IMG/VR virus record: IMGVR_UViG_3300044638_007100
Length of the DNA stretch: 64,000 nucleotides
Strand: one strand, 5' to 3'
DNA from: a virus
Position 1 is the stretch's first letter, and every line of letters starts with the position of its first letter. The notes beneath the pieces were generated by a model. The model ran no database searches. It worked only from the letters and a program-made list of their open reading frames with translations, and was not told the DNA's origin. Below are positions 61,881 to 63,410 of this stretch, one piece after another. Made by a program: the position numbers and the translations under genes.

Positions 61881-63344
61881 TCAGGAGAATACTTCTCCCA
61901 CCGCATCATAACGTTCATTATACACGGTTTCGTTCATAGTGTCAATAGGAGTAATGACACTATCGGTTAGAACAGACTTCAGAATAGAAGAACTGCAACC
62001 GGATACCAGACAAGTGCCAGTATCGTGTGCCTTAATAGGTACATTACCATAAGAGTTCACATTCCAAAAAACCAGTTGAGGCATTTCATACCCTGCCTTA
62101 CGGTAGAGTTTTTGAATTTGCTCAAAATTGGTTCTCTTGTTGGAGCGGCAGCACTGGTCAAACTGCATGTCAGAGACAATGATCAGTTTTTGAGGCATAT
62201 CCTCCGCAGGAACATTATTCTTTACTCCAGCATCCAGAACAGTTTTGAATACTGCCATCAGGTCGGTATTCATCTGCCAAGCAGCACGAGAAAGATTCTC
62301 AACCCGCTTACCGATGGTAGAACCAACGATGGATTGAAGTTCAGGTTGTGCAGAGAAAGTCAGGAACTTGTTCTTCCAAACTTGAGCAGTATTACGCTCT
62401 GCAATATACATCGCAAGAGAGATAGACACTGCCATAGGGCGACCCATCATAGATCCAGAAACGTCTGCAACTACCAGACCGTTAAACTCTTTACCTTCCA
62501 TGTAGTTAGGAAGTGCTTCCCACTGCAGGTCAATGGTTTTGTCGTTACGAGCACCCTTGTAGAGATACTGTTCAACAATATCATATGGATAGAGAGTTGC
62601 TGCATTGATCTTTGCTTCACCCTTCTCAACGGCACTGAGATAATCAGCATACCGAGTTGCATCTTGCTTTGCGAATGCTTTGCGATACATGAAAGCAGCA
62701 CGGGAAGGCAGTTTGGAATAATCAATTACAGACCATTCCTTAGAGCACATTGCCTTTTCAACAACGTTAATGTGAGTACGAAGATTGCTGAGAACCTTAC
62801 GATACTCGCGCTCAGTCATGCCAAGATGTGCGGCAATCTTACGACCTAGACGCTTGCTATCTTTGCTAGAAGCATTGATAGAAGGCATCCATTTGGCAAG
62901 CAGAGATACTGGTGCGCCTGCTTTGAAGGAAACACGATCCAGATTCATTTGATTCTGAATTGCATTCAGCACAGTTTCCCAGGCAGAAGTGTTTTCCAGA
63001 ACAAGAAGGTCATCCCAACGTCCATATACAGGAACCAGAGAAACCAGTTTTTCACCAATTTCACCATTATCTTCTACCAGATATTTGAAGAGGTTACGGA
63101 AAACTTCACGCTCACCTTGTCCCCCACGAATATCCCGTGCCCAGAAGAGAATACGAGTAGCAGTCTCAGGATTCTCCGCATATGCATGGGCAAAAAGTTT
63201 TTGTGCTTGCTTGACATCATTACGGCAAGCAGCGATTTTTCCGAAAAGATCCAGACACTTATTCAGAGTGGATTTGTATGCTTTTGCACCGTTCAGAGTT
63301 TCGGTGACATTCATTTCGGATTCAAGAGCATTCATAAAAGTCAT
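61881..63344 (-). CDS. DUF2828-family protein (helical TROVE/Ro60-like N-terminus + VWA domain)
   Basis: RDIRGGQGER, YGRWDDL, LAKWMPS, KINAATLYPYDIV; MIDAS-like VVADVSGSM, IVSDMQFD, VFWNV. Confidence 0.8.
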   Translation of the reverse strand: MTFMNALESEMNVTETLNGAKAYKSTLNKCLDLFGKIAACRNDVKQAQKLFAHAYAENPETATRILFWARDIRGGQGEREVFRNLFKYLVEDNGEIGEKLVSLVPVYGRWDDLLVLENTSAWETVLNAIQNQMNLDRVSFKAGAPVSLLAKWMPSINASSKDSKRLGRKIAAHLGMTEREYRKVLSNLRTHINVVEKAMCSKEWSVIDYSKLPSRAAFMYRKAFAKQDATRYADYLSAVEKGEAKINAATLYPYDIVEQYLYKGARNDKTIDLQWEALPNYMEGKEFNGLVVADVSGSMMGRPMAVSISLAMYIAERNTAQVWKNKFLTFSAQPELQSIVGSTIGKRVENLSRAAWQMNTDLMAVFKTVLDAGVKNNVPAEDMPQKLIIVSDMQFDQCCRSNKRTNFEQIQKLYRKAGYEMPQLVFWNVNSYGNVPIKAHDTGTCLVSGCSSSILKSVLTDSVITPIDTMNETVYNERYDAVGEVFS

Positions 63345-63355
63345 AATTTTTCTCC

Positions 63356-63410
63356 AAGTTGATGTTTAGTTGTTTTTCAGATACAATTAGGTTGATTGCT
63401 GAATCAACTT
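63356..63410 (-). ncRNA. CAGCAA stem module E4 in the DUF2828 leader
   Basis: 8-bp stem AAGTTGAT/ATCAACTT plus CAGCAA; ends directly at the GGAG Shine-Dalgarno. Confidence 0.65.

What the first reader, a model, noticed from the sequence alone, without database searches (positions are those of the whole stretch)
63342..63410. CAGCAA module abutting the DUF2828 ribosome-binding site, with an alternative fold
Seen: stem E4 (AAGTTGAT/ATCAACTT) ends one base before GGAG, which lies 7 nt upstream of the ATG. The 5' arm GTTGAT can instead pair with ATCAAC immediately after CAGCA (63391-63396), forming a short hairpin with TCAGCA in the loop and freeing the distal arm. Inference: an autoregulatory translational switch in which the protein binds its own leader, titrated by the other modules.
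Basis: partly seen in the sequence, partly recalled or inferred. Interest (0 to 1): 0.7.

Follow-up and report, generated by a model that had tools for sequence, protein, structure and literature searches.

The report
Partner-RNA handle in Ro60-like gene leader
A freshwater cyanophage puts a weakened, shape-shifting copy of the short RNA "handle" carried by its Y-RNA-like small RNAs directly against the ribosome-binding site of its Ro60-like protein gene, most likely so that the protein can limit its own synthesis, though no binding has been shown.

Summary
An 8-bp stem (63410-63403 / 63363-63356) carries UCAGCAA after its 5' arm and ends on the base before GGAG, 7 nt from the ATG of a DUF2828/DUF7788 gene. 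That gene's predicted fold is Ro60.

The stem-plus-CAGCAA "handle" recurs five times here, against 0.28 expected. It also lies beside homologous genes in Listeria, Bacillus, mycobacterial and gut phages.

The leader copy is present in every cyanophage relative found, down to 59% protein identity. One base pair changes in a compensatory way.

The broader idea holds. In 23 distinct leader copies the canonical fold is level with a competing fold (median +0.7 kcal/mol). In 60 non-leader copies it wins by a median 5.7 kcal/mol (p = 2.5e-9).

Handle-to-RBS adjacency occurs in two separate clades but is absent from many other loci.

Autoregulation by mimicry is the best reading (about 0.4) and is untested. 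I found no paper describing it for Ro60 proteins. This scan reached the same reading on other phage genomes; what is new here is the poised fold.

The parts
63403..63410 (-). E4 5' arm AAGUUGAU. It can pair with three successive partners.
   Evidence: It is near-invariant in 23 orthologous leaders.
63396..63401 (-). CAGCAA motif of the handle, preceded by U63402.
   Evidence: The motif is more degenerate in leader copies (CAGCAA in 7/16) than in other handles (55/73).
63391..63396 (-). It forms a transient co-transcriptional hairpin.
   Evidence: It is conserved only in the window's nearest relatives.
63368..63372 (-). CAACU, the second (proximal) partner of the 5' arm. With the inner helix UUCAG 63403-63399 / CUGAA 63380-63376 it makes the compact fold.
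   Evidence: pair probability about 0.26. The compact fold beats loop shuffles (p = 0.013; 0.000 and 0.02 in the repeat tests).
63356..63363 (-). E4 distal 3' arm AUCAACUU, the canonical partner.
   Evidence: 98.4% of cells paired and one compensatory pair.
63352..63355 (-). Shine-Dalgarno GGAG. Its first G is the conserved G that follows the 3' arm of the handle.
63342..63344 (-). ATG start codon of the Ro60-like gene.
   Evidence: The N-terminus MTF..AL is conserved in relatives.
61881..63344 (-). DUF2828 + DUF7788 gene, 487 aa, with a predicted Ro60-like fold (HEAT-type helical repeats + vWA).
   Evidence: Pfam; pLDDT 87.9; Foldseek 1yvr, E = 2.7e-8, TM 0.60; also 9kop and 2nvo.
63419..63479 (-). 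E5, a second upstream handle in the same 5' UTR (AAGAUGAG / CUCAUCUU + GCAGCAA). It is robustly folded and dispensable in some relatives.
   Evidence: The stem covaries (AAGATCAG/CTGATCTT in B3; TAGATGGG/CCCATCTA in L023).
63483..63496 (-). UUCG-tetraloop hairpin between tRNA-Val and E5. It is the likely 5'-terminal hairpin of the processed mRNA.
   Evidence: It covaries among relatives. No U-run follows.
63498..63569 (-). tRNA-Val(UAC), co-oriented and upstream of the leader.
63600..63628 (-). Sigma70-like promoter candidate (TTGACG-17-TATTCT with TG) for the tRNA-Val-E5-E4-gene unit.
   Evidence: This is a consensus match only.

Best explanation
E4 is a cis-acting, deliberately weak copy of the RNA handle. 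The handle is an 8-bp stem, one base, CAGCAA, and a G after the 3' arm. It marks the phage's Y-RNA-like small RNAs, which are the presumed ligands of the Ro60-like protein encoded immediately downstream.

Proposed mechanism: when the protein exceeds its free partner RNAs, it captures the canonical fold of E4. That fold's last nucleotide is the first G of the Shine-Dalgarno sequence, so the bound protein keeps the 30S subunit off the start site. This is autogenous translational repression by molecular mimicry.

In most cyanophage lineages a competing compact hairpin uses the same 5' arm. This lowers the operator's apparent affinity, so the robustly folded partner RNAs are saturated first.

Shown:
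- the anatomy, the conservation and the abutment to the RBS;
- the poised energetics, which are specific to the leader copy;
- the Ro60-like predicted fold;
- co-occurrence of the handle with this protein family in distant phages.

Inferred:
- that the protein binds the handle at all;
- that it prefers the distal (canonical) fold;
- that binding represses rather than activates.
For: 1. E4 matches the handle family. The stem covaries among paralogous copies (TAGATGAT/ATCATCTA, TAGATAGT/ACTATCTA, TAGGTAAT/ATTACCTA, AAGATGGT/ACCATCTT and others).
2. The same stem + (A/U)(A/C)CAGCAA(A/U)UAC element lies next to DUF2828 genes in Listeria P100 and Bacillus Thrax2, around the YrlA-like RNA of mycobacteriophage Silverleaf, and in many IMG/VR contigs.
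3. The protein model (pLDDT 87.9) matches Ro60 structures over its full length.
4. E4 is present in all cyanophage-clade loci with upstream sequence, from 99% down to 59% protein identity, even where E5 or the downstream handles are missing.
5. The stem ends 6-13 nt from the start codon in all of them.
6. Canonical-minus-alternative energy has a median of +0.3 kcal/mol in 15 leader copies (+0.7 in 23), against -5.7 in 60 other handles (Mann-Whitney p = 2.5e-9).
7. A proximal partner for the 5' arm beats loop shuffles in 11/15 leader copies against 5/61 other handles.
8. The protein tree puts handle-RBS adjacency in two separate, well-supported clades.
9. The downstream RNA array has its own promoter-like sites, so RNA and protein output are separately driven and would need balancing.
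Against: - No binding or expression data exist.
- The SD is single-stranded in both folds, so repression depends wholly on an unproven protein footprint.
- The CAGCAA motif is degraded in several leader copies (CAGCAG, CAGCAU, CCGCA, CAGCU). This could mean weak binding, or none.
- Five lineages (the AAGTTAAT clade, L024, L226, L228) have no significant competing fold.
- In the second adjacency clade the RBS-adjacent handle is as stable as the others.
- Many DUF2828 loci have the nearest handle 30-100 nt away, only downstream, or not detected.
- The sequences compared are related, so the p-values overstate independence. There are about 13 lineages, 7 of them with a significant competing fold.
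Confidence: 0.42

Rival explanations
1. E4 (with E5) is simply one more partner small RNA. It is co-transcribed upstream of the gene and cut out of the precursor. Its contact with the RBS reflects phage genome compaction, not regulation.
For: - Y RNAs encoded upstream of the Ro60 gene and processed from one precursor are known in M. smegmatis (PMC4201824) and in Thermus phage phiLo (PMC12135203).
- In Listeria P100 and Bacillus Thrax2 three handles lie upstream of the gene, 74-97 nt from the start.
- In the gut-phage clade the adjacent handle carries a T-arm-like cargo and is stably folded, like a true small RNA.
Against: - In the cyanophage clade E4 differs from all other handles. It has no cargo, its motif is degenerate, and its fold is poised rather than stable.
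- It is the one handle never lost, while the number of other handles varies from 0 to 8 per locus.
- No tRNA follows it, so RNase P cannot release its 3' end as it can for E1 and E2.
Confidence: 0.25
2. E4 is a protein-independent 5'-UTR element. It would be a stabilising or processing hairpin, or a tuner of ribosome access, whose weak fold is selected only so that translation is not blocked.
For: - A weak or poised structure is what selection for an accessible RBS would give.
- SD-less relatives (B3, L023, L030-32, L228) keep the stem 6-9 nt from the AUG.
- The CAGCAA motif is partly lost in E4.
Against: - This does not explain why the element keeps the handle's stem family, the 1-nt spacer, CAGC and the trailing G in 15 of 16 stem-selected leader copies.
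- It does not explain why a specific proximal competitor is maintained by different sequences in at least 7 lineages.
Confidence: 0.15
3. Positive feedback. The protein binds the leader handle and protects the mRNA 5' end, or holds the RBS open, so raising its own synthesis.
For: - In the L037 gut-phage clade the 3' arm (UCCU) can pair with the SD (AGGA) when the handle stem is not formed, so stabilising the handle would free the SD.
- Ro60 proteins stabilise the RNAs they bind (established knowledge; PMC4201824).
Against: - In the window's clade the SD is free in both folds.
- A 55-kDa protein on a site that ends at the SD's first base is more likely to hinder than to help the 30S subunit (inference).
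Confidence: 0.1
4. Chance inverted repeat in an A/T-rich leader.
For: An 8-bp stem with a 39-nt loop is common by chance in 64 kb. The loose scan gives about 17 hits in shuffles.
Against: - The strict handle pattern gives 5 observed against 0.28 expected.
- The arms are near-invariant beside a hypervariable loop in 23 orthologues, with a compensatory change.
Confidence: 0.03

Closest known systems
Ro60/Rsr with Y RNAs (bacterial and phage YrlA/YrlB, Rfam RF02553; Thermus phage phiLo Ro60 with Yrl1/Yrl2)
   Same: - The protein has a ring-type Ro60 predicted fold with a vWA domain.
- The small structured RNAs are encoded beside the gene on the same strand, and some have tRNA-like parts.
- A terminal stem carries a conserved motif on its 5' strand.
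- The RNAs lie upstream of the gene, as in phiLo and M. smegmatis (PMC12135203; PMC4201824).
   Different: - The protein hits Pfam DUF2828/DUF7788 and not TROVE, even at E < 10.
- The motif is CAGCAA, not GNCGAA or GGUCCGA.
- No Rfam family matches the leader.
- No cis-regulatory role of a Y-like element has been described for any Ro60 protein in the library I searched.
Autogenous translational operators that mimic the protein's main RNA ligand (E. coli ribosomal proteins S8, S15, L1, L20; ThrRS operator; T4 gp43, gp32, RegA; MS2 coat protein)
   Same: The operator resembles the primary ligand, lies on or against the RBS of the protein's own mRNA, is weaker than the primary site, and competes with free ligand. 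(Established knowledge; not tested here.)
   Different: Here the ligand is an array of phage Y-like RNAs and the protein is Ro60-like. Binding is unproven. The operator's weakness comes largely from a competing hairpin rather than from sequence divergence alone.
Two-state leader RNAs (riboswitch expression platforms, attenuators)
   Same: One strand has mutually exclusive partners that form in transcription order.
   Different: - There is no terminator and no SD sequestration in either state.
- The presumed effector is a protein.
- The competing fold is absent in some lineages.

Membership tests
Ro60/Y-RNA ribonucleoprotein | Protein with the Ro60 architecture (HEAT-repeat ring plus vWA domain) | tested here: met
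   AlphaFold2 model built with 51 sequences has pLDDT 87.9. The top Foldseek PDB hits are Ro60 1yvr (E = 2.7e-8, TM 0.60), phiLo Ro60 9kop and Rsr 2nvo. This is a prediction, not a solved structure.
Ro60/Y-RNA ribonucleoprotein | Sequence membership in the TROVE family (PF05731) | tested here: not met
   Pfam reports only DUF2828 and DUF7788, with no TROVE hit at E up to 10. A PDB sequence-profile search finds no Ro60.
Ro60/Y-RNA ribonucleoprotein | Partner RNA with a terminal stem carrying the GNCGAA / GGUCCGA Ro-binding motif | tested here: not met
   The motif here is (U/A)CAGCAA(U) after the 5' arm. No Rfam family, YrlA (RF02553) included, matches the region 61200-64000 at E up to 1 apart from the tRNA model. 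A sub-threshold YrlA hit (39.8 bits against a gathering score of 69) occurs only in the mycobacteriophage relative, and there it is enclosed by a CAGCAA handle.
Ro60/Y-RNA ribonucleoprotein | Protein physically binds the RNA | not testable with these tools
   This needs EMSA, filter binding or RIP.
Autogenous translational operator (ligand mimicry) | The operator resembles the protein's primary RNA ligand | tested here: met
   E4 shares the stem family, the 1-nt spacer, CAGC and the trailing G with the other handles. That those handles are the protein's ligands is itself inferred.
Autogenous translational operator (ligand mimicry) | The operator overlaps or abuts the RBS of the protein's own mRNA | tested here: met
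   The stem ends at 63356 and GGAG is 63355-63352. The stem lies 6-13 nt from the start in all clade members. A second clade shows 16-21 nt.
Autogenous translational operator (ligand mimicry) | Protein binding lowers translation of its own mRNA | not testable with these tools
   This needs reporter fusions and toeprinting.
Two-state RNA switch | Mutually exclusive folds, both conserved | tested here: inconclusive
   The canonical stem is conserved in 23/23 leaders. A significant competing fold occurs in 14/23 (61%), against 8% of control handles. It is absent in five lineages and in the second adjacency clade.

The most novel reading that the evidence does not exclude
The leader is a protein-responsive two-state RNA. 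It sets the stoichiometry between a phage Ro60-like protein and its array of small RNAs derived from tRNA spacers. The protein would be made until all robust handles are occupied, and would then fold and occupy the poised handle on its own RBS. This would be the first feedback circuit described for any Ro60-family protein. It would also give a simple genetic read-out (a leader-reporter fusion) for what these proteins recognise.
Probability: 0.33. Interest if true: 0.7.

Novelty: new variant of a known kind. Interest (0 to 1): 0.55.

Why it matters
Ro60 proteins and Y RNAs occur from phages to humans, and Ro60 is a human autoantigen. How cells or viruses balance the protein against its RNAs is not known.

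A handle copy on the protein's own RBS would be a ribosomal-protein-style feedback loop for this family. It would give an easy assay for the RNA determinants recognised by the large, uncharacterised DUF2828 branch, which has homologues in 705 phage records.

For phage biology, it would show that a cyanophage regulates an RNA-handling RNP that is embedded in its tRNA gene array.

Tried and rejected
- No whole genome is held for this window, so handle counts are limited to the 64 kb.
- Single-sequence AlphaFold2 gave an unusable model (pLDDT 42). It was replaced by a 51-sequence alignment.
- A PDB sequence-profile search found no Ro60. Only the fold comparison did.
Its matches were almost all chance, with only two already-known contigs being real.
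- A promoter reading of E4 was rejected. There is no minus-strand promoter match. The plus-strand 9/12 match at 63359-63387 has its -10 element in the hypervariable loop.
- A terminator or attenuator reading was rejected because there is no U-run.
- SD sequestration was rejected because GGAG is unpaired in all predicted folds.
- The ATG inside the E5 stem (a 12-codon frame) was rejected as a uORF. It comes from the stem consensus AGATG and is absent in B3.
- The test for a poised fold in the second adjacency clade was negative.
- A literature search for DUF2828 found no phage paper. Searches for Ro60 or Rsr autoregulation found none.

Full report
**Setting.** The window is a T4-like freshwater cyanophage.
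- Rfam finds a group I intron, PhotoRC-II, wcaG and glnA RNAs.
- The nearest records are Synechococcus phages B3 and B23 of the Kyanoviridae.
- The finding lies on the minus strand, upstream of a 487-aa ORF (61881-63344) with Pfam DUF2828 and DUF7788.

**The protein.**
- No TROVE hit appears even at E < 10, and a PDB sequence-profile search finds no Ro60.
- An AlphaFold2 model built with 51 homologues (pLDDT 87.9) matches Ro60 structures over its full length. These are Xenopus Ro 1yvr (E = 2.7e-8, TM 0.60), Thermus phage phiLo Ro60 9kop and Deinococcus Rsr 2nvo.
- tblastn finds homologues in 705 phage records. These include the mycobacteriophage proteins annotated as "Ro-like RNA binding protein".

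**The observation.** Reading the minus strand, the elements are:
- AAGUUGAU (63410-63403);
- U, then CAGCAA (63401-63396);
- a 39-nt stretch between the two arms that begins with this U-CAGCAA;
- AUCAACUU (63363-63356);
- GGAG (63355-63352), with no gap;
- AAAAAUU, then AUG (63344).

**The handle family.**
- Perfect 8-bp stem + 1 nt + CAGC[AC] occurs five times in 64 kb. All five are on the minus strand between 61411 and 63480, against 0.28 expected.
- The five copies are the spacers between tRNA-Val, the gene, two tRNA-shaped RNAs with 51- and 60-nt inserts in the anticodon arm, and tRNA-Gly.
- Stems covary freely among paralogous and orthologous copies.
- A G follows the 3' arm in 66 of 73 other handles and in 15 of 16 leader copies. 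In E4 that G is the first base of GGAG.

**The same handle in distant phages.** I found it beside DUF2828 genes in:
- Listeria P100: three copies behind a consensus promoter, 74 nt or more from the start;
- Bacillus Thrax2: three to four copies;
- mycobacteriophage Silverleaf: copies downstream of the gene, one enclosing a sub-threshold YrlA-like tRNA mimic;
- many IMG/VR contigs.

A transcriptome paper on a P100-like phage reports three very abundant non-coding RNAs close to its Rsr-like gene and suggests they may be Y RNAs (PMC12282133).

**Conservation of the leader copy.**
- Every cyanophage-clade locus with upstream sequence has E4. These are B3, IMG/VR contigs and metagenome contigs, at 99% down to 59% protein identity.
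- The stem ends 6-13 nt before the start codon in all of them.
- In 23 distinct sequences the arms, CAGC and the trailing G are nearly invariant, while the loop is hypervariable in sequence and length (18-51 nt).
- 98.4% of stem cells pair, and one pair is G-C in 18 sequences and A-U in 5.
- E5, the second handle in the leader, is lost in several relatives. The number of downstream handles varies from 0 to 8. E4 is never lost.
- In several relatives a sigma70-like promoter sits immediately before E5 or E4, so E4 is part of the mRNA's 5' UTR.

**The alternative fold.**
- In the window it has about 2% ensemble probability. The canonical stem has about 72%, and a third pairing of the same 5' arm with CAACU (63372-63368) has about 26%.
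- It is the minimum-energy fold of the nascent transcript only between 63391 and 63370.
- It is conserved only in the nearest relatives.
- Nearly every lineage nevertheless offers the 5' arm some proximal partner inside the loop. Examples are CAACU, AAUCAAC, AUCGAC, UAUCAA, CAACUU(AGG) and CUGUAGCAA.

*Shuffle test.* The compact fold beats shuffled loops in 11 of 15 leader copies (median z -3.1). It does so in only 5 of 61 other handles (median z -0.45).

*Energy comparison.*

| Handle set | n | Canonical minus best alternative, median (kcal/mol) |
|---|---|---|
| Leader copies | 15 | +0.3 |
| Leader copies, enlarged set | 23 | +0.7 (range -4.4 to +4.9) |
| Non-leader handles | 60 | -5.7 |

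The Mann-Whitney test on the sets gives p = 2.5e-9. The lineages that lack a competitor have intrinsically weak stems, at -1.1 to -3.3 kcal/mol. The leader copy is therefore systematically the least committed handle.

*Caveats.*
- The sequences are related. There are about 13 lineages, 7 with a significant competitor.
- The energies are predictions.
- The SD is unpaired in both states.

**Beyond the clade.**
- Among 76 loci with distinct proteins, 52 have an upstream handle by my pattern scan. In 32 of these it lies within 25 nt of the start.
- On a protein tree these fall into two separate, well-supported clades: the cyanophage clade and a clade of related contigs (L037, L058, L070, L075). 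Their sister groups lack adjacency.
- In the second clade the adjacent handle carries a T-arm-like cargo and is not poised.
- Adjacency therefore recurs but is not a family-wide rule. The two-state property is specific to the cyanophage clade.

**Interpretation.** The best-supported reading is an autogenous translational operator that mimics the protein's partner RNAs. It would be weakened by a competing hairpin so that free partner RNAs are bound first.
- This fits the abutment to the RBS, the retention of E4 when other handles are lost, the degenerate motif (CAGCAA in 7/16 leader copies against 55/73 others) and the poised fold.
- It also fits the separate promoter-like sites for the downstream RNA array.
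- It remains an inference. Nothing shows that the protein binds any handle, which conformer it would prefer, or the sign of any effect.
- The rivals are given separately with odds: a processed partner RNA with no regulatory role, a protein-independent UTR element, and positive feedback.

**Literature and earlier scan notes.**
- Y RNAs upstream of Ro60 genes are known (PMC4201824; PMC12135203).
- In the library searched I found no report of Ro60 or Rsr autoregulation and no phage paper naming DUF2828.
- Earlier notes of this scan on other phage genomes reached the same "handle on the RBS, probably autoregulation, unproven" reading. My own survey agrees with them.

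Noticed in passing
window 61917-61945 (minus strand): A perfect sigma70 consensus (TTGACA-17-TATAAT, 12/12) lies inside the 3' end of the Ro60-like ORF and reads into the downstream handle and tRNA array. In relatives the same coding stretch keeps a near-consensus match, and many have a second TTGACA-N17-TAAGAT site just after the stop codon. The RNA array therefore probably has its own promoter.
   Followed up: partly
window 63483-63496 (minus strand): A UUCG-tetraloop hairpin lies directly after tRNA-Val. It covaries in relatives (CACCTTAGGGTG, ACGCCTTCGGGCGT, ACATCTTCGGATGT) and has no U-run. 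It may be the 5'-terminal stabiliser of the processed mRNA.
   Followed up: no
window 63436-63452 (minus strand), inside E5: An inner hairpin of E5 has a 7-nt loop C-N-N-U-U-A-A that is kept across relatives. Its stem covaries (UAGA/UCUA here, UAGU/ACUA in B3, CUAAA/UUUAG in L002).
   Followed up: no
L037:1402-1500, L064, L058, L070, L075: In a distant clade of viral contigs the RBS-adjacent handle carries a T-arm-like GGTTCAATTCC. Its 3' arm (UCCU) can pair with the SD (AGGA) when the handle stem is blocked, which would give the opposite regulatory logic.
   Followed up: partly
L018:1144-1430 (Listeria phage P100); L015:930-1401 (Bacillus phage Thrax2): Three stem + ACAGCAA(A/T)TAC handles lie behind a consensus promoter upstream of the DUF2828 gene. 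PMC12282133 reports three very abundant non-coding RNAs near the homologous gene of a P100-like phage, and finds the protein in virions.
   Followed up: partly
L017:2950-3210 (mycobacteriophage Silverleaf): The YrlA-like tRNA mimic (RF02553, 39.8 bits, below the gathering score) is enclosed by a stem followed by UAGCAGCAAUUAAC. This links the published mycobacteriophage Y RNAs to the CAGCAA handle.
   Followed up: partly
window 63657-63998, 59750-61276 and 58929-59516 (all minus strand): An HNH endonuclease ORF lies just upstream of the promoter candidate. A full-length OprB/SLH porin gene and a ferritin-like gene lie downstream of tRNA-Gly.
   Followed up: no
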